Source: Podospora anserina (lineage: Eukaryota). Taken from it: 64,000 bases of DNA. Of the stretch, positions 19,546 to 47,497 are shown piece after piece. How positions within the stretch are numbered: the stretch's first letter is position 1; the number at the start of each line of letters is the position of its first letter. The DNA lies in the NCBI GenBank assembly GCA_017654855.1, contig CM030338.1:806001-870000 (forward strand), given 5' to 3'. The position numbers and the translations under genes are program-made. A model generated the notes under the pieces. The model saw nothing but the letters and a program-made list of their open reading frames with translations. It made no database searches and was not told the DNA's origin.

Positions 19546-19979
19546 GGATGAGTCGAGTATAAACGGGTATATAGACATTGATAAGATGTTAGATCATGTT
19601 TGGCATAGATTATGTGAATGCATAAAAGGCCCACCTGGTCGATGGCGCCTTCCCTGGTTGTGTGGTAGAAGGGGGTTCCTTCCTCAGTCTAATGAATGTG
19701 AGTTGTTCCTGCCGTAAGTATACAAATGCCACCCACCCTACGAGACTGGGAAGGTTCGGGCCCAAGTCCTTCTGATGTCGTCGATATAGGTATTCACAAC
19801 AGATGTTTTAACAAAGTCATCTCATCCGTAAGCTACACATATCTTGTTCACTTTCGTTGCCGACATCAATATATCTTCCTTCGTTTATTGACATCATCTA
19901 CCACCACTCGTTATCATCCGTCCACCTGCCAATCAGGCATTGGACACCCATCTTCGCCGGGAACACTCGTTTTGCCAGC

Positions 19980-21938
19980 ATGACATCCACCCCCAACACT
20001 CACCACGGCGTTCCTCCTTCTTCCTCATCCACGCCAGTCTTACAAGCTCCAGCAACCGAGAAGAAAGCCCCCCTTCCTCCACTCCCTCCACCTCGCCAGC
20101 ACCAACCCCCACCTCAACTCTTCACTTGCACATTTTGCTAGCGGCTCTCCTCCCCTTCGCCTTGGAATTCAAAACCTCACGTTCTCGGCTCCTCGGCCCG
20201 TTTAGCATGCCACGCCTGCTACATAGCCATCACCAACCTGGCAATATGCTGGGTCTGCAACGAAATGGTCTTCCGCGGGGAGGACTGTGTCAGCTTGGGG
20301 TGGTGCTTCTGGCACAAGGCATGCTACGGGTGTTTATTCTGCGGGTGCAAGAATGTGGTCAGGGGAACACCGCTCAAGGAATGGTTTGAGGACGATGGAA
20401 CTGGAGAGGAGGACAAGGCGAAGGAGGTGGACACGGTACCGATGTGTATCAACTGTTTGGTTGATGTGCAAGATCAGCAGGGTGCAGAGGGAGAACAAGT
20501 GAGCGAGGCCGAGGTGGTGCAGAAGGCGCTGAGAAAGGTGGAGAGGGCCGAGGGGGATAATGGGCTGGCGAGGGGTAGGTGGGAGGGGTTGAGAAAGGGG
20601 TATAATGAGAAGAAGATTCATTTGCATAGGCGGGTCAATGAGGAGGGGGCAAGGTCGGATTTTGATGAGGGAGGTGATCAGGGGAATGACCAGACGACTA
20701 TTTACGTGTCGCTGTCTGACCCGCTGGGAGAGATATCGTTTCGACCGAGTCCGACAAAAGGGATTCCGTCTTTCTTGCAGCCTTCGCCCGCCTCGCCGGT
20801 TCAGTCTTCTCATCAAGTTCCTGTCCCAACGCAGCAAGAGTCCCGGATCAGGCGCCACAATGTCCGTTCGTACTCTTCGAGGGTCAGCAACAACTCCCAC
20901 GCATCCACCGTCCGTCTCGAAGATCGGTATTTCTCTACTTCGGATAGCAACAGAACGCAGTACCCTCACAGCGAGATGTCAGAGGTGCCTTCACTCCAAA
21001 ACACACCACCCACAAGCAGCCCACGACGATTTATCCACCGCGGTGCACCATTCGTCTCTAACCAGACTCTCCCCTCCTCGCCCATCCAAAGAGAAGCAGC
21101 CCCCCAGGACAGCCTGTCACACAACTCAACCACGTTCTCCTCATACGAAACCCCCCCAGAGTACCCTTCTTCCCCCGTCTCATCATCAGGCCGACAAAGC
21201 CAAAGTTTAGGAGCTGACGACCCCTTCACTAAGATCGACTCGAGGATGAACCGAGCCACCTCCTACAACCTATTCCCTACAGCATCACACACAGGCGTGA
21301 CATCGACACGACAGTACTCCTCCTACCATTCCCTCCGTTCAAACCCATCCGCGAGAGTAGAACCCCCCGTGATGTCGATCCACATCCACCAAACCAACCC
21401 AAGGATGTCAACCGAGTATCTCCAGCCCCAGCGGCAAGCTCACCAGTCGAGGTCATCACCACAGTTGCAGCCACCACCAGCGCTGTCGATCACGCCAATC
21501 AACACCCCACCGGCACCTGTTGTTCTTATTGGGAATAACACAACACCCACTAACAACCCCAAACAGGGTTTCCTCCGGCGGACAGTCTCTGGAAGAAAAC
21601 GACAAAAGTTTCCTCGAGGAGAGGATGAAGAGGCACGGATGGCAAAAATTGGCACAGGGAAGAATGGTAGCCTGGCTACCGCGCCAGCAGTGAAAGCAGA
21701 GCCCAGCGCTGGACGGGTTCAAACCCCGGAGATGGTGGCCACCACCGCCACCACCGTCACCACCACAAGAGGTCACCAAGAAATAGGGCAGACGATCCCT
21801 ATCGGTGCCCTTGAGGGAAGAGATGAGAAAAAGGGGGGAAGCGGCGGTAGTGGTGGTAGTGGCAGCGGGAATGGGGGGAGCAGTCGCAAGAGGAGAAGTG
21901 TACAAGCCGACCTTTTGAGGAGGTTTTTTGGACGATGA
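19980..21938 (+). CDS. LIM-type zinc-finger protein (652 codons) with one in-frame TAG at 20139-20141, a candidate edited or read-through stop
   Basis: The frame from ATG 19980 continues through the TAG without further stops into the 557-aa ORF. It reads CTFC*RLSSPSPWNSKPHVLGSSARLACHACY...CWVC-x18-HKACYGCLFC...CINC, i.e. a half-LIM finger plus a LIM-like domain. Confidence 0.75.
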
Positions 21939-22450
21939 CTCAAACAACTGATAGAGATATGAGTAGGTATCAAGACAACGCATAACTACATCTCCAATGA
22001 TGAAAAAGCAGCAGCTCGTGCAAAAAATAGCTCTCAAGTTGATAATCCTACAGAACTCCCATGCTCATCCGACAAGCCCAATCCCCAGCCTATTAACGCC
22101 ATTTTCCCCCCTTCTTCATATGAAAAATTTCTCCCGTTGTCCCGAAGGCCGCCGCTGCCGCCGCCTTAAACTCCCCTCAAATGATGACGTGTAATGTATC
22201 GTTACAAGTGAATATAAAAAAGCAACCCAGATAACTTATGCACCTTTCCCACTCCCCTAATAATACCAGTATCAACTCCCAAGGAAGCTTTTCTTCGTCA
22301 AGGCTAACTAAGAATGTGGTGTCACCCACAACGCCCAAAGCTCCCCCGTATCGAAAAGCCACCGACTGCCCTATCCCAACAATATGCTTCATCACCGGCA
22401 GCAAACGCCAAGTGATTGACATGGCAACACAAGGCCAAGTGGGAGTGTCT

Positions 22451-24692
22451 TTACTTCCTCACCTTTGGCCTCGACAAAGCCTGCAACCGACTAAGACTAA
22501 TCCCACCCCCCGTAGTCTTCTTCTTCATCGGGCTCGGCGTCCCGGGCGCGCGACCAGGCAAAGCCGCCATCTTCCTAGGACTAGCACTTTGCATCCCCGT
22601 CTTCTTCGCGCTCGCGGCAACCAGCCTCGGAGCAAGCAACGCATCCCCCTCGGGAACATGCTTCCTCTTCTTGGCCGCCCTATCCGCCGCCTCTCGCTCC
22701 GCTTCTTCCTCCTCCTCATCCGACGTAACCCGATGTCGCTTCTTGTTCGTCATGCCATGAGGCAGAGCGACAAACACCGTGCGCGGGGCTTCATTCTCCT
22801 TGTTTGAAACCGTCGTCGACGATGAAGTGCGGGGGAAGCTGCCGGGCATGTTCTCCGTGGGCAGAATAGATGGGCGGACGGGGCGGATGCTAGCTTGCCC
22901 GGGGGAGGAGCCGAATGAAGAGGATGGACCGCCGAAGCTGATGGTGTGGTCGCCTCGGAAGGAGAATGTGCCTGGGACGGATGGCTCGGCGGAGGGGGCC
23001 TTGGTTTCGGTGGGCACGTCTGGGAGGGGGCGGACGGTGGAGAGGTCGGGGTAAGACACATCCTCGGCGCTCTGCTCAGCCAGGACGCCGTCCAACGATG
23101 GGTAGTGGACCTCTCCAAGTGGCTGCCTGACAGCGGGAATGGGGACGCCAGACTTGACCGGCGATGGAGAGTTCTGAGCCATCGCAGCATGTTGAGTGTC
23201 GGGGGTGAAAGCCACACGAGTGAGCTTGCGGGCAGGGGTGGTCATGGGGACTGGAGGAAGCTCCTTTTCCAGACGAGGAGGGGCTGGTGTCTTGGAACCA
23301 AGAGCAGAGGGCATCGGAATAGTGCTTTTAGGCTTCGCAGTACTGGCCTGGGGGCGGCGGAAAAGAGACTTGACCTGCTCGAAGCGGCTCTTGGGGGTCT
23401 TGACCTCGACGGCCACCTCGGGACTCTTGGGCTCGGCTGTCGAAACAGCTGCCTTGGGGCTCTTGAGATCATCAGTGGTAAAAAGCACTGCCTTTGAGCT
23501 TTTGACCTCAACCGTCTTCGTCGTCTCCTCCTCAACGGCCGCAATGTTGCTCGTCGTGGCAGACTTGATGAGACCGCCCAGCGCAGGCTTGGAGGGTGAC
23601 CGCAGAAGCGAGCCACGTACAGGGGTCTTGGCAATGGTGCTGCACGATCGAGCAAGCGAAGATTTGGTTGGGGTCATCAACGATGCAAGATTAGATTTGG
23701 ACCGAGGTAGGGCCATGTTAGAAGACGACTTAGGCATCGGAATTGCGCTCGCATCTCGTGAAATTGGACGCTTCGTCGTGGCATCGTCCTCGATATGCTG
23801 ACGAGCACGCTTGATAGGAGACTCGACCTCCTCAACACGCTGATTGGCCTTGAGAATCGTCGAGACTGGAGTGGACTGCTTAGAACGAGCATGCTCGGGT
23901 TCGTCGAGATTGGCCTTGGATTGGCTGCGCTTGACGCCTTGTTTGAGTGGTGTAATGCGGCTCGACTGGGCTCTGAAGGCTGAGGGATGGTTCGCGATCG
24001 AGTCCATTTTCTTGAACTCGTTCATATGGGCTGAGCTGAAACGGCCGGCCTTGCCTTTGGCAGTAGCAATTTTGCGATTGTTAATCTGCTCTTCTTCGGC
24101 CTTCTCTGCCTCGCGCTGGGCGGCCAACTCGACTTTGATTTTGGCGGCCTGATCGCGGATTTGGTCCATCATGCGCTGAGCCTCAGGCCCGAGTTTCATA
24201 TCTAAGTGACCGGGTTGTCTGAATGTAAAAGAGGAAGATGGGACTGCAATCTTGGTGGGTGTAGATTGAATGGCGCCGGGAAGTGCATCGCTGCGAGAAG
24301 AAGTGGGCTTGACAATGTCGGTGAAGCCTAGACGCAGACCGGACGAAGGTGGCGCCATGGTCGGATGGTATTTGGCAGGATGCATTTCTGTGGCAGGAGG
24401 TTTAATGCGAGAAACCTTGCCAGCTGGTGTCGCGGGCAGCTTGGTAGGAGTTGGGGCGGGAGCTGGGGCTGGGGACGCAACGACAGCATCAATGTTTTGA
24501 ACCGCGGCACTCTCGGCGGGAGTGTCATCTCGCTCGGCGACGGCAGCTAGGACTGGTTCCTCATGGGACGGCTTCATCGCCTGAAGTTGCGAAGCACGGG
24601 TTAGCGGCATTGTCGTCGAATTTTGGCATGTTTGTCTTTGTTTGTTTACTTACCCTTTGGGCGCTCGCCAGGCGCGCTGAACGGCGGGCCAT
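22451..24692 (-). CDS. Conserved fungal basic, Ser/Thr/Pro-rich protein with a NuSAP-like motif
   Basis: Exon 1 (24692-24654, MARRSARLASAQR), a 73-nt intron (24653-24581, GTAAGT...GCTAAC...CAG), then the long ORF. It contains KGKAGRFSSAHMNEFKKMDSIANHPSAFRA and many S/T-P-x-K sites. Confidence 0.82.
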
Positions 24693-45110: not shown

Positions 45111-47497
45111 ATGTCGACTCCGACTACTGCAACTGCGACGCTCCCTCCCTACAGTCACAGTCACTTTCACTACCCACACCACCACCAGCAGCATAAATCG
45201 TTCCCACAACCAAATACCTCTGCCTACCGCTCTACGAACCCGGTGCTTCCTCCTGCCTCCCGTCTCGTTTATCCCTCTACCTCCGGCTACAACACTCACC
45301 CGGCGACACACGCCGCGTCAAATGGAGCGAGTCTGATGCCCCTGGAGCCATCGAGACACCACCCACACGACTCGGCCGACTTGGCCTCCCATCGCTCGGA
45401 ATCGCTCTACTCAACCATGCCGGCAAACTCGCAGTCAAGCCGAACCCAAGTGGTGACCAACCCGCCGCCGTCGTCGTCAAAAAAGAGACAGAGAGATGTC
45501 GATTGGAATGATTTCTACAAAAATGGCCTGCCGACCGAAATCATCGTCATTGATGACTCCCCCGAGCCTGAGGAGCCGGCAACGTCCAAGAACCTGACCA
45601 ACGGACATTCCTATGCCAGCGGCCCGACCGATGCTTCGGTCGCCCCTCCGGCCAAGAGGAGGAGAAAAGAGACTGATGCGGCGCCTTACGACCCTGTTCA
45701 CCATATCGCATCACACACCCACACTCCTCGCCAGTATGGGTCGCCAAGCAAATCGACAACGTCAAGTGGCCGTACCAACTCTGCCAATCATACCACGGCC
45801 GCTACCTCACTTGGCTCACTTTCATCAAACGGTCAGTATGACCACGAGTTGCAGCAGGCGAGCCAGGGCCAGAAGCGGAAAAGAACCCGGGCGCAGACGA
45901 ACAGCGAGGCGAAGCGTCGCGAGGCTCTGGTCACAGATGCTTTTGCCAGCTACATTCCTCCTCGGCAGCCCATCAAGAAGTCCCGAGATGTCCCGGTCCA
46001 GATCATCACTGATGTGAGCCATTTCCATCACGGTGCCATTGTGAATAGCTACACTAACCACCAATGCTAGCCTCCGCACATGCAGACCTCGCGGGTCGAC
46101 GATGACGAAGGTCACTACATTGTTGTGCCGGACAATCCCTTGACTGAGCGATGTAAGTTGTTGCTCAATTATGATGAACGCCTCGGCATCCTGTTGACGC
46201 GAATCTGGAACAGATCAGATGGTCAAGCTGCTTGGACAAGGCACGTTCGGCAAAGTCGTCCAAGCCAAGGACAGGCAGCGTCCAGGGAAGTTGGTCGCCA
46301 TCAAGATCATTCGCTCGGTGCAAAAGTACCGCGAAGCCAGCAAGATTGAGCTCCGAGTCCTGGAAACGCTCAAGGCCAACGACCCGGAGAATCGCAACAG
46401 GTGCATTCACCTCCGAGACTGCTTCGATTACCGCGGCCACATTTGCATCGTTATGGACCTGTTGGGTCAGAGCGTGTTCGACTTTCTTAAGAGCAATAAT
46501 TTCGTCCCCTTTCCCAACAGCCAGATTCAGAGCTTCGCCCGCCAGCTGTTTACCAGCGTAGCCTGTGCGTACCGTTTTCTGGCCAAACACCACGGGATTT
46601 GTGTTGCTGACTCTTTCTTTTCGCAGTCTTGCATGATCTCAACTTGATCCACACGGATTTGAAGCCCGAGAATATCTTGCTTTGTCATAACGAGTACCAG
46701 ACGTTCACGTACAACCGCAAGATTCCATCCTCGAGCAGCAATGTTGCCCGCCAGGCCACACAAAGAAGAGTATTGTTGGACACCGAGATCCGGTTGATTG
46801 ACTTTGGGTCTGCAACATTTCAGGACGAATATCACTCGTCCGTTGTGTCAACTCGGCATTACCGTGCACCCGAAATCATTCTTGGTCTTGGCTGGTCTTT
46901 CCCCTGCGACATTTGGAGCATTGGATGCATTCTCGTCGAGTTCTTCACCGGAGATGCCCTTTTCCAGACACACGATAACCTCGAGCATCTGGCCATGATG
47001 CAGGCGGTGGTGGACGCCAATATCGACACTCACCTTGTCCAGTCTGTAAACCGCCAGCCACGCAATGGCACCAACCCAGCATCCAGGTAAGATTCTCGGA
47101 AGACGCTCTTCGCTGGAGCAGCACAACTGACAGCACAATAGGTACTTTAAGCGGAACAAGCTTGATTACCCGACAGCAGATACCACAAGACAGTCGAAGA
47201 GATTTGTCAGAGCAATGAAGACACTTCCGGTTTGTGTTTTGTTGCGTGGACCCATCTATGACGAGTCTGCTAACCCTGTTGCAGGAGATCATTCCGCCGA
47301 ACAACAAGTTCCTGAAAGAGTTCTTGGCCCTTTTACAAAAGATCTTTGTCTATGACCCTGCCAAACGGATAACGGCCAAGGAGGCTCTGAGCCATCCCTG
47401 GTTCCAGGAACACGCTTACCCCGACGACGGAACCGAAGCTGCTCGCATTCGCGCCGAAAAGCAGAGACTCAACGAACTGTCGGCCATTGCGCCATGA
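45111..47497 (+). CDS. lkh1: LAMMER (CLK-family) dual-specificity protein kinase, Lkh1/Kns1 type
   Basis: Motifs [52 protein letters not shown] and EHLAMMQ. Five GT-AG introns at about 46014-46070, 46153-46213, 46565-46626, 47087-47141 and 47230-47285. Confidence 0.95.

What the first reader, a model, noticed from the sequence alone, without database searches (positions are those of the whole stretch)
19980..21938. LIM zinc-finger gene interrupted by a single TAG: candidate A-to-I premature-stop correction
Seen: the ORF track splits this gene, but ATG 19980 and the 557-aa ORF share a frame and the only stop between them is TAG 20139-20141 (TTT TGC TAG CGG). Read as Trp, it completes a zinc finger C-x2-C-x23-C-x2-C (CTFC-W...LACHACY) directly before a LIM-like domain. 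Starting at the downstream ATG 20265 would cut off the first LIM cysteines (CWVC). There is no good GT donor or CTRAY branch site for a small intron removing the stop. Known: Sordariomycetes carry out sexual-stage, ADAR-independent A-to-I mRNA editing that converts UAG to UGG in pseudogene-like genes such as Fusarium PUK1, preferring U at -1 and purines at +1/+3; this site is U-A-G-C-G. Inference: full-length protein is made only in fruiting bodies, i.e. an editing-gated LIM scaffold.
Basis: partly seen in the sequence, partly recalled or inferred. Interest (0 to 1): 0.85.

Follow-up and report, generated by a model that had tools for sequence, protein, structure and literature searches.

The report
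Stop codon replacing conserved tryptophan
A Podospora zinc-finger gene carries a stop codon where its relatives have an invariant tryptophan, and since relatives acquired the same kind of stop several times it is probably repaired by RNA editing, although the one RNA assembly that covers the site still shows it mostly unrepaired.

Summary
ATG 19980 and the annotated 557-aa ORF (ATG 20265 to TGA 21938) share a frame, and TAG 20139-20141 is the only stop between them.

The TAG replaces a Trp that is W in 55 of 66 full-length family members. The 41 codons between the TAG and the annotated start keep every family-invariant residue, including the first Cys pair (CWVC) of the LIM-like domain.

One RNA-like assembly (X2) crosses the TAG in a single colinear 865-nt contig. 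This rules out a dominant spliced form in that run. The contig keeps A at 20140. The same run has two A>G recoding changes further down the gene, both after U (20946 Ser>Gly, 21528 Ile>Val), so the transcript does look edited.

Among seven DNA-level family members, four carry one TAG each, at one of two invariant Trp codons. Each has a TGG-bearing nearest relative. In three of them no downstream ATG could produce the LIM core.

Best reading, confidence about 0.55: this is a new member of the known class of Sordariomycete "pseudogenes" restored by sexual-stage A-to-I editing (UAG to UGG). Editing at this site would be below 50% in the data I could see. Rivals are use of the downstream start, translational readthrough, and a decaying N-terminus.

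The parts
19860..19979 (+). Probable 5' untranslated leader. RNA-like contigs of two studies (X2, X7) both begin at 19860, and it contains no ATG, so ATG 19980 would be the first AUG.
   Evidence: table 8 (a weak hint only; no DNA run was laid beside them). Sequence.
19980..20138 (+). Upstream coding part, 53 codons from the ATG. It is a Pro/Ser-rich N-terminus ending in the invariant FTCTFC zinc knuckle (C50 at 20127-20129, C53 at 20136-20138).
   Evidence: C6, T7, F8 and C9 of alignment A2 are invariant in 21 of 21 rows.
20139..20141 (+). In-frame TAG at the position of a conserved Trp (W54). It is the candidate UAG>UGG editing site, with the edited A at 20140 and context U-A-G-C-G.
   Evidence: The position is W in 55 of 66 full-length family members (H 7, F 3, Y 1). 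The contig base is A in run X2.
20142..20264 (+). 41 conserved codons between the TAG and the annotated start. They hold the second Cys pair (C77, C80) and the CWVC pair (20250-20261) of the LIM-like domain. There is no in-frame ATG in this stretch.
   Evidence: invariant G26, R30, C33, C36, L43, C46, W47, C49 of A2. The AlphaFold2 model gives pLDDT 83-92 over this stretch.
20265..20267 (+). ATG used by the public gene models (557-aa product, identical to P0049). It is the third AUG on the transcript, after 19980 and the out-of-frame ATG at 20246.
20250..20456 (+). LIM-like double zinc finger: C-x2-C-x17-H-x2-C-x2-C-x2-C-x34-C-x2-C.
   Evidence: phmmer E 0.06-0.6 to seven CRP/MLP/CRIP LIM chains, aligned over CWVC...WHKAC..C..C; the top Foldseek hits are tandem-LIM proteins, best E 2.7e-3; no Pfam hit.
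20946..20946 (+). A read as G in run X2 (AGC Ser > GGC Gly, residue 228 of the 557-aa form), context U-A-G-C. Probable A-to-I editing site.
   Evidence: table 3 (contig depth 114.7; A in X1 and X7). P0055 = P0049 + S228G + I422V, found on 4 contigs.
21528..21528 (+). A read as G in run X2 (ATT Ile > GTT Val, residue 422 of the 557-aa form). The A is the first base of the 3-nt loop of a 10-bp hairpin. Probable A-to-I editing site.
   Evidence: table 3 (A in X1, X5, X7). fold (-7.8 kcal/mol; probability that the A is paired 0.00)..
20718..20768 (+). Conserved motif DPLGEISFRPSPTKGIP in the otherwise disordered C-terminal two thirds of the protein.
   Evidence: invariant D247, P248, F254, P256, K260, P263. 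This was the pattern used for the metagenome scan.
21936..21938 (+). TGA, end of the ORF.

Best explanation
The gene lies in a genome of the Podospora anserina species complex. Sibling species name their orthologues with locus tags ending _702830. It encodes a 652-aa protein made of an N-terminal C4 zinc knuckle, a LIM-like double zinc finger and a long disordered tail.

Its 54th codon, ancestrally TGG (Trp), has mutated to TAG. I read it as a 'premature-stop-corrected' gene of the kind described in Fusarium graminearum and Neurospora. From the first AUG (19980), unedited mRNA yields only a 53-residue peptide. When the sexual-stage tRNA-deaminase-based A-to-I editing activity converts UAG to UIG (read as UGG), the full-length protein with Trp54 is made.

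Shown here:
- the TAG, its frame and its position at a conserved Trp;
- conservation of the coding sequence on both sides of it;
- a colinear contig across it in an RNA-like assembly;
- two other A>G changes in the same transcript;
- four independent TGG>TAG events in the gene family.

Inferred:
- that A20140 itself is edited, probably at under 50% in bulk RNA or only in particular cells or stages;
- that editing is confined to fruiting bodies;
- that the full-length protein is the functional product.
For: 1. Position. In alignments A1 and A2 the TAG aligns with the W of the invariant FTCTFCW motif. One search finds W there in 55 of 66 full-length family members.

2. Constraint upstream of M96. 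All 12 family-invariant residues that lie before M96 are intact in the window. There is no frameshift and no second stop. The AlphaFold2 model is most confident exactly there, with pLDDT 83-92 for model residues 1-50 against 58-78 after the annotated start.

3. No splice seen. X2 contig 6 (865 nt, depth 61) covers 19860-20724 with 0 differences and 0 gaps, and no joints are reported.

4. The transcript looks edited. X2 contig 7 differs from the DNA at exactly 2 positions, both A>G, both after U, both recoding. One sits in the loop of a 10-bp hairpin. The same pair defines P0055, seen on 4 contigs and in none of the named genome-derived proteins of the cluster.

5. Site context. U at -1 and G at +1 and +3 match the preferences stated in section 5 of PMC11156358.

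6. Family signature. Seven DNA-level sequences cover the sites (window, L001-L006).
   - Four carry one TAG each: window and L006 at W54, L002 and L004 at W92. None carries TGA or TAA in the domain.
   - Each TAG-bearer has a TGG-bearing nearest relative in the tree: L004/L003 100/99, L002/P0028 93/82, L006/P0026-27 91/85.
   - After the TAG the ORFs stay open for 693 (L002) and 587 (L004) codons.
   - The next in-frame ATG lies 72, 106 and 155 codons downstream, beyond the LIM core.
   - L003 (TGG) against L004 (TAG) gives pN/pS of 0.05/0.28 upstream and 0.04/0.40 downstream of the stop.
   - Only 6 of 96 single-base paths to a stop in the window's domain are TGG>TAG.

7. Match to the published pattern. 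Passages of PMC10776026 describe TAGs mostly derived from TGG, repeated independent origins at the same site, sites mostly N-terminal or before domains, and enrichment for disordered proteins.

8. Gene models. 43 of the 109 family proteins that have the core motif lack one or both Trp sites. Nine of them jump from the first knuckle straight to the codon after W92.
Against: 1. The only assembly that covers the site (X2, 1 of 4 runs laid) has A at 20140 as the contig base. In the same run two other sites read G. So editing at the TAG was not the majority form there. PMC10776026 reports a median level of 79% for such sites in F. graminearum.

2. No 652-aa form is in the 15-billion-protein collection. 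The exact look-up was negative. No Podospora-complex hit extends past M96 among proteins of 358-1141 aa. P0055, the form carrying both edits, is still the 557-aa ORF.

3. The local RNA fold is weak, and the A is more often paired than not. The probability of being unpaired is 0.30, the 22nd percentile of the gene's 46 UA sites. Fungal editing prefers hairpin loops.

4. In L006 the knuckle upstream of its TAG has lost an invariant Cys (CTLS). This hints that not every TAG in the family is rescued.

5. The RNA nature of runs X1-X14 is the tool's guess, and contigs drop minority variants.

6. I could not obtain DNA of the close relatives (Cercophora samala, Apiosordaria, Triangularia). The age of the window's TAG therefore rests on where their gene models start.
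Confidence: 0.55

Rival explanations
1. The annotated model is right. The TAG is a true stop, and the protein is the 557-aa form started at ATG 20265. It would be translated from a shorter transcript or by reinitiation. The upstream 53-codon ORF would then act as a translational damper, or be a remnant.
For: All 10 named gene models start at this Met: five sibling Podospora species plus Cercophora samala, Apiosordaria backusii and Triangularia setosa among them. ATG 20265 has G at -3 and +4. The X2 contig keeps the TAG. The downstream ORF is intact at 71-85% identity across three other genera, so some product is under selection.
Against: The 557-aa form lacks CWVC, the first two zinc ligands of the LIM-like finger. 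The 41 codons it would leave untranslated keep all 8 of their invariant residues and are the best-folded part of the model. If transcription starts near 19860, ATG 20265 is the third AUG, behind a 53-codon ORF and the out-of-frame ATG 20246. In L002, L004 and L006 no comparable downstream ATG exists.
Confidence: 0.22
2. Ribosomes read through the UAG at a low rate, without any change to the RNA. UAG followed by C is a leaky context (recalled, not from a call). This would give a little full-length protein in all tissues.
For: The contig base at 20140 is A, yet the coding sequence is conserved on both sides. C at +4 is in the sequence.
Against: All 4 stops seen in the family are TAG at Trp codons and none is TGA. 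TGA is reached from TGG by an equally easy transition (6 paths each). By recall it is also the leakier stop and the one read through as Trp. Readthrough of UAG usually inserts Gln, Tyr or Lys (recalled), not the conserved Trp. No known readthrough motif follows the stop.
Confidence: 0.12
3. The TAG is a lineage-specific loss-of-function mutation. The N-terminal module, or the whole gene, is decaying in the Podospora clade.
For: There is no direct evidence of rescue at 20140. L006 shows decay of the knuckle upstream of its own TAG.
Against: The 598 codons after the TAG hold no further stop or frameshift. The ORF is kept at 557-565 aa in at least 10 named species. The gene appears in RNA-like assemblies of four studies. 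All invariant residues on both sides of the TAG are intact.
Confidence: 0.08
4. The TAG is removed by splicing (for example as a 3' splice site), or it is an assembly error.
For: In-frame introns that end in TAG do occur in this window, for example 46014-46070.
Against: X2 contig 6 is colinear with the DNA from 19860 to 20724 and no joints are reported. There is no GTRNGT donor or CTAAC branch signal upstream. An intron would delete residues that align with orthologues. Six DNA-like runs hold 1.00 of the sampled words, and sibling-species models share the downstream start.
Confidence: 0.03

Closest known systems
Premature-stop-corrected (PSC) 'pseudogenes' of Fusarium graminearum: PUK1, AMD1, FgAMA1, FgRID and 67 others. 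Source: PMC10776026 and PMC11156358; I read passages of the first, and passages plus section 5 of the second.
   Same: An in-frame TAG lies in an otherwise conserved CDS of a Sordariomycete. The TAG derives from TGG and sits N-terminal to the domain. The protein is rich in disorder. The family shows independent origins of TAG at equivalent sites. The site has U at -1 and purines at +1 and +3.
   Different: Editing at the TAG is not demonstrated here. The contig base is A in the one assembly covering it, whereas the published median level is 79%. The gene family (C4 knuckle plus LIM-like) is not named in the main text of PMC10776026: a whole-word search for 'LIM' and 'zinc finger' gave 0 hits. 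I could not see its supplementary gene lists.
FgAMA1 (PSC33): six independent origins of a premature TAG at the same site. Source: a passage of PMC10776026.
   Same: TAG arises repeatedly and independently at one conserved codon in different Sordariomycete lineages.
   Different: Here two different invariant Trp codons (W54 and W92) are used, two events each among the seven DNA-level sequences. The taxa are Podosporaceae, Xylariaceae-like fungi and unnamed metagenome fungi.
CHE1 of F. graminearum, with a conserved premature stop edited in hyphae under oxidative stress. Source: PMC11169179 (title and start of the abstract only, from the listing).
   Same: A conserved premature stop is corrected by A-to-I editing.
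   Different: That editing is reported in vegetative hyphae. I did not test any relation to this gene.
LIM-domain proteins: CRP/MLP, LMO2, FHL2, PINCH.
   Same: The C-x2-C-x17-H-x2-C-x2-C-x2-C...C-x2-C spacing. Weak phmmer matches aligned over the first finger. The top Foldseek matches are tandem-LIM chains.
   Different: No Pfam LIM hit at E<=1. No Foldseek hit at E<=0.001, and TM-scores are about 0.3. The second finger carries a 34-residue insert. An extra C4 knuckle precedes the domain. In some members the first Cys is Tyr.

Membership tests
Sordariomycete PSC (editing-restored) gene | An in-frame TAG inside an otherwise intact, conserved coding sequence | tested here: met
   it is the single stop, and all invariant residues on both sides are present.
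Sordariomycete PSC (editing-restored) gene | The host belongs to a lineage with sexual-stage A-to-I mRNA editing | tested here: met
   The cluster mates are Podospora species of the order Sordariales. Editing is described as common to Sordariomycetes (passage of PMC10776026). Two A>G changes after U occur in this very transcript.
Sordariomycete PSC (editing-restored) gene | A>G at the stop codon's A in RNA from sexual tissue, absent from the DNA | tested here: inconclusive
   1 of the 4 runs laid covers the site, and its contig base is A. Contigs hide minority variants, the tissue is unknown, and raw reads were not available.
Sordariomycete PSC (editing-restored) gene | The ancestral codon is a sense codon, usually TGG | tested here: met
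   the position is W in 55 of 66 full-length relatives, and the nearest clades have W.
Sordariomycete PSC (editing-restored) gene | Preferred sequence context (U at -1; A or G at +1 and +3) | tested here: met
   U-A-G-C-G. The preference is taken from section 5 of PMC11156358.
Sordariomycete PSC (editing-restored) gene | The edited A lies in a hairpin loop | tested here: not met
   the fold is weak (-4.7 kcal/mol over 51 nt) and the probability of being unpaired is 0.30. This is a preference, not a requirement. In L004 the equivalent TAG is the 3-nt loop of a strong hairpin.
Sordariomycete PSC (editing-restored) gene | The full-length protein is needed for sexual development, and the TGG-locked allele is functional | not testable with these tools
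   This needs genetics.
LIM domain (Pfam PF00412) | A significant match to the family profile | tested here: not met
   0 Pfam families at E<=1 for the 652-aa read-through protein.
LIM domain (Pfam PF00412) | C2HC + C4 (C2-C2) ligand spacing and the LIM fold | tested here: inconclusive
   The spacing is present. phmmer to PDB LIM chains gives E 0.06-0.6. The Foldseek top hits are LIM proteins, but the best E is 2.7e-3 and TM is about 0.3.

The most novel reading that the evidence does not exclude
This LIM-like gene family would be a hot spot for editing-gated expression across Sordariomycetes. Two invariant Trp codons in its zinc-binding module would have been turned into UAG switches at least four times independently. 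A large share of public gene models would be mis-built around them. In Podospora anserina, a genetic model for which my searches found no published editome, the switch would be edited only weakly or in few cells. Full-length protein would then be restricted to a small part of the fruiting body, with most transcripts staying silent.
Probability: 0.4. Interest if true: 0.6.

Novelty: new member of a known kind. Interest (0 to 1): 0.45.

Why it matters
If the TAG is edited, the public annotation of this gene is wrong by 95 residues in at least ten species, and it removes half of the zinc-binding module. The gene would become a tractable case of editing-gated expression in P. anserina, where TGG- and TAA-locked alleles are easy to make.

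The recurrent TAGs at two Trp codons would add an independent gene family to the evidence that editing lets premature stops become fixed. That question is still debated (PMC13431901; PMC13684035, listing only).

If the TAG is not edited, the case is still useful. It would be a stop that looks exactly like a PSC site and yet is not rescued.

Tried and rejected
- Intron hypotheses were rejected (19828-20141, and small introns around the TAG). See (colinear contig, no joints; no donor or branch signals).
- Pfam scan of the read-through protein: 0 hits.
- Whole genome of the window: none is held. I could therefore not survey the genome for other TAG-interrupted genes or for the editing enzymes.
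- Sequencing runs: no RNA holder is listed. No listed run is on record as RNA, and X1-X14 are guesses.
- Parts without cover: runs X1, X5 and X7 do not cover 20139-20141. X1 has nothing between 19657 and 20250, and X2 has gaps at 20725-20844 and 21685-22050. I draw nothing from these holes.
- Search for short proteins matching residues 1-100, meant to catch upstream ORFs of relatives that end at the stop: 53 candidates, none at E<=0.01.
- Exact look-up of the 53-aa upstream ORF and of the 652-aa form: neither is in the collection.
- Earlier notes of this scan: nothing on this genome or on this protein. One unrelated dinoflagellate psaA note turned up and was not used.
- Literature (main texts only): 'Pa_7_2830' gave 0 papers. 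'LIM domain' + 'A-to-I' + 'ascospore' gave 0 papers. The Podospora + editing searches gave no Podospora editome in the 20 and 15 records listed (of 463 and 25 found); the preprint 10.1101/2024.12.09.627484 only notes deaminase genes. Supplementary gene lists of PMC10776026 and of the Podospora papers were closed and may bear on novelty.
- The second TAG junction in the window (46068) is an ordinary intron.
- DNA of Cercophora samala, Apiosordaria, Triangularia and the named Xylariales could not be fetched with any tool. Their TAGs are inferred from the shapes of their gene models only.
Full report
**What is in the sequence.**
The + strand has an ATG at 19980. An open frame runs from it to TAG 20139-20141 (TTT TGC TAG CGG) and continues in the same frame to TGA 21936-21938. 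Read with TAG=W, it gives a 652-aa protein, P0001, with W54 at the stop.

The cysteines are arranged C50-x2-C53-x23-C77-x2-C80. A LIM-like pattern follows: C91-W-V-C94-x17-H112-x2-C115-x2-C118-x2-C121-x34-C156-x2-C159. The ATG used by public gene models (20265, M96) lies just after CWVC, so the 557-aa product lacks those two ligands.

**Whose gene it is.**
The 557-aa ORF is letter-for-letter identical to P0049, a protein held by NCBI and seen on 14 contigs. Its 90% cluster holds the orthologues of Podospora comata, P. pseudocomata, P. pseudopauciseta, P. pseudoanserina and P. bellae-mahoneyi, with locus tags ending _702830. The window is therefore from the P. anserina species complex. That the P. 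anserina gene would be called Pa_7_2830 is my inference from those tags, and no paper in the library mentions that name.

Every named model in the cluster starts at the downstream Met. So do the next relatives, Cercophora samala (85% identity), Apiosordaria backusii and Triangularia setosa. Six DNA-like runs from two studies hold 1.00 of the sampled words of the region. A sequencing error is therefore unlikely, although one of those runs may be the window's own source.

**The TAG replaces a conserved tryptophan.**
More distant Sordariomycete orthologues have full N-termini that read FTCTFC-W-R/H-L. They include Echria, Podospora didyma, Cladorrhinum, Lasiosphaeria, Coniochaeta, Xylaria, Thyridium and Chaetomium, plus the Leotiomycete Pseudogymnoascus. 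Their W aligns exactly with the window's TAG.

- I examined 171 family proteins: 46 and 125 from the representative search.
- 109 of them have the core motif, and 66 of those are complete over both zinc knuckles.
- In those 66 the TAG position is W in 55, H in 7, F in 3 and Y in 1.
- The Trp of CWVC is W in 66 of 66.
- In alignment A2 (21 rows), 12 invariant residues lie upstream of M96, and the window has all of them.

An AlphaFold2 model of window 20112-20492 (TAG=W, 21-row alignment) has mean pLDDT 74. It is most confident over the first 50 residues (83-92). That stretch spans the TAG codon and everything the annotated start would discard.

**Is it a LIM domain?**
Pfam finds nothing at E<=1. 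phmmer against PDB sequences finds only weak hits (E 0.06-0.6). Seven of the first nine are LIM domains of CRP, MLP or CRIP proteins, aligned over CWVC...WHKAC..C..C. Foldseek's top matches are tandem-LIM proteins (LMO2, FHL2, PINCH LIM4-5, LMO4), but the best E is 2.7e-3, none reaches 1e-3, and TM-scores are about 0.3. 'LIM-like' is fair. Membership is not established.

**RNA evidence.**
No listed run is on record as RNA. X1-X14 are the tool's guesses. Their small assemblies and gene-limited cover fit RNA. I laid X1, X2, X5 and X7, from four studies, as Logan contigs. Only X2 covers the TAG.

- X2 contig 6 (865 nt, depth 61) runs from 19860 to 20724 with no difference, no gap and no joint. 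In that sample the dominant form is unspliced across the TAG and keeps A at 20140.
- This contradicts the 19828-20141 intron, because the contig begins inside that interval.
- Contigs of X2 and X7 both begin at 19860. That is a weak hint of a transcription start. No ATG lies between 19860 and 19980, so ATG 19980 would be the first AUG. ATG 20265 would be the third, after the out-of-frame ATG 20246.
- X2 contig 7 (20845-21684, depth 115) differs from the DNA at exactly two places, both A>G. One is 20946 (AGC Ser > GGC Gly, context U-A-G-C). The other is 21528 (ATT Ile > GTT Val).
- X1 and X7 keep A at both places, and X5 keeps A at 21528.
- A21528 is the first base of the 3-nt loop of a 10-bp hairpin. 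That is the kind of site fungal editing prefers (PMC11156358 section 5).

The same two changes define P0055. It equals P0049 plus S228G and I422V, is seen on 4 contigs, and matches none of the genome-derived proteins of the cluster. I take this as good evidence that the transcript is a substrate of A-to-I editing.

The same data count against efficient editing of the TAG. P0055 is still the 557-aa ORF. No 652-aa form exists in the protein collection. The published median level for such sites in F. graminearum is 79% (PMC10776026). Contigs drop minority variants, so editing below about half is not excluded.

**Family-level evidence.**
A metagenome scan with alignment A1 returned eight loci. Six of them cover the N-terminal module.

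- L006 has TAG at the same codon as the window (tcc TAG cgg).
- L002 and L004 have TAG at the other invariant Trp, the W of CWVC (tgc TAG gtg and tgc TAG gcg).
- L001 and L005 have TGG at both sites. L003 has TGG at the second.

So four of seven DNA-level genes carry one TAG each. All four are at Trp codons, and none is TGA or TAA.

In a maximum-likelihood tree of 31 rows, each TAG-bearer sits next to TGG-bearers:
- L004 with L003 (support 100/99);
- L002 with Xylaria sp. P0028 (93/82), inside a Xylariaceae clade (100/99);
- L006 with P0026 and P0027 (91/85);
- the window apart from all of these, in an unresolved group with TGG-bearing Cladorrhinum, P. didyma, Lasiosphaeria and Echria.

By parsimony that makes four independent TGG>TAG events.

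After the TAG the frame stays open for 693 (L002) and 587 (L004) codons. The next in-frame ATG lies 72, 106 and 155 (L006) codons downstream, past the conserved VSLGWCFWH core. That core can therefore only be translated through the stop. L002 has no in-frame GT donor that could remove it.

Between L003 (TGG) and L004 (TAG), pN/pS is 0.05/0.28 for the 35 codons upstream of the stop and 0.04/0.40 for the 38 codons downstream. This is a small sample, and it shows constraint on both sides.

In the window's 216-codon domain, only 6 of 96 single-base routes to a stop are TGG>TAG, or 6 of 20 if only transitions count. TGG>TGA is equally accessible and was never seen.

**Gene-model anomalies.**
Of the 109 family proteins with the core motif, 43 miss one or both Trp sites.

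- Ten keep the first knuckle but skip the W92 region. Nine of these go straight from FTCTFCW... to (V/A)CGE, the codon right after W92. Examples are Hypoxylon, Biscogniauxia, Poronia and Microdochium. It looks as if a predictor had placed an intron ending in that TAG.
- Twenty start just after W92. Two of them start with the V of VCGE.
- Eight start between the two sites.
- Five have an unrelated N-terminus joined near W92; four of these resume at VCGE.

Some of these will be truncations at contig ends. Their TAGs are inferred, not seen.

**Match to the published pattern, and counter-evidence.**
This pattern matches what PMC10776026 describes for editing-restored 'pseudogenes' (passages read). 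There the TAGs derive mainly from TGG, and premature stops arise repeatedly and independently at the same site in different Sordariomycete lineages. The sites lie mostly N-terminal to or before domains, and the proteins are rich in disorder. That paper's main text does not mention a LIM or zinc-finger gene. I could not see its supplementary lists.

Two results cut the other way. In L006 the knuckle upstream of its TAG reads CTLS, so it has lost an invariant Cys. That suggests relaxed constraint there. The window's TAG has an unfavourable, though weak, local fold, with probability unpaired 0.30 (22nd percentile of the gene's 46 UA sites). L004's TAG is the loop of a strong hairpin, L006's is 0.84 unpaired, and L002's is paired.

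**Verdict.**
- The most likely mechanism is restoration of Trp54 by sexual-stage A-to-I editing (UAG>UGG). This makes the gene a new member of a known class. I put it at about 0.55. The case rests on strong comparative evidence and on editing seen elsewhere in the transcript. The site itself was seen only unedited, as the majority base in one assembly.
- The main rival is use of the downstream start with the upstream ORF as a damper (0.22). Readthrough (0.12) and decay (0.08) follow. Splicing or error is nearly excluded (0.03).
- Raw perithecial reads at 20140 would settle it.

Noticed in passing
window 20946 and 21528: Two probable A-to-I recoding sites (Ser>Gly, Ile>Val) in this gene. They are seen in run X2 and in a protein form found on 4 assembled contigs. 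I found no published editome for Podospora anserina in the library searches.
   Followed up: partly
window 46014-46070 (+): The only other single-TAG junction between long same-frame ORFs in the window. It is an ordinary 57-nt intron (GTGAGC...CTAAC...TAG) in a LAMMER/CLK-like kinase gene (DDDEGHY...LGQGTFGKV). A second intron starts at GTAAGT 46153.
   Followed up: yes
L006:1-700 and window 22451-24649 (-): The metagenome locus with a TAG at the same codon also carries a homologue of the window's neighbouring gene (...NKENEAPR...LSRLQALSRPKVRK), but in the opposite relative orientation. The neighbourhood is kept, with an inversion.
   Followed up: no
family proteins P0012, P0016, P0024, P0035: In several orthologues the first Cys of the CWVC pair is Tyr (IYWVC). 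The first zinc site of the LIM-like finger may therefore not be used in the same way in all members.
   Followed up: no
L004:2594-2644: The in-frame TAG of this metagenome orthologue forms the 3-nt loop of a very stable hairpin (-33.6 kcal/mol over 51 nt). This is a textbook-looking editing substrate, unlike the window's own site.
   Followed up: partly
protein cluster of P0002: The cluster holds an unrelated 51-aa member, P0056 (MNAGSALSIAS...). It looks like a clustering oddity in the protein collection.
   Followed up: no
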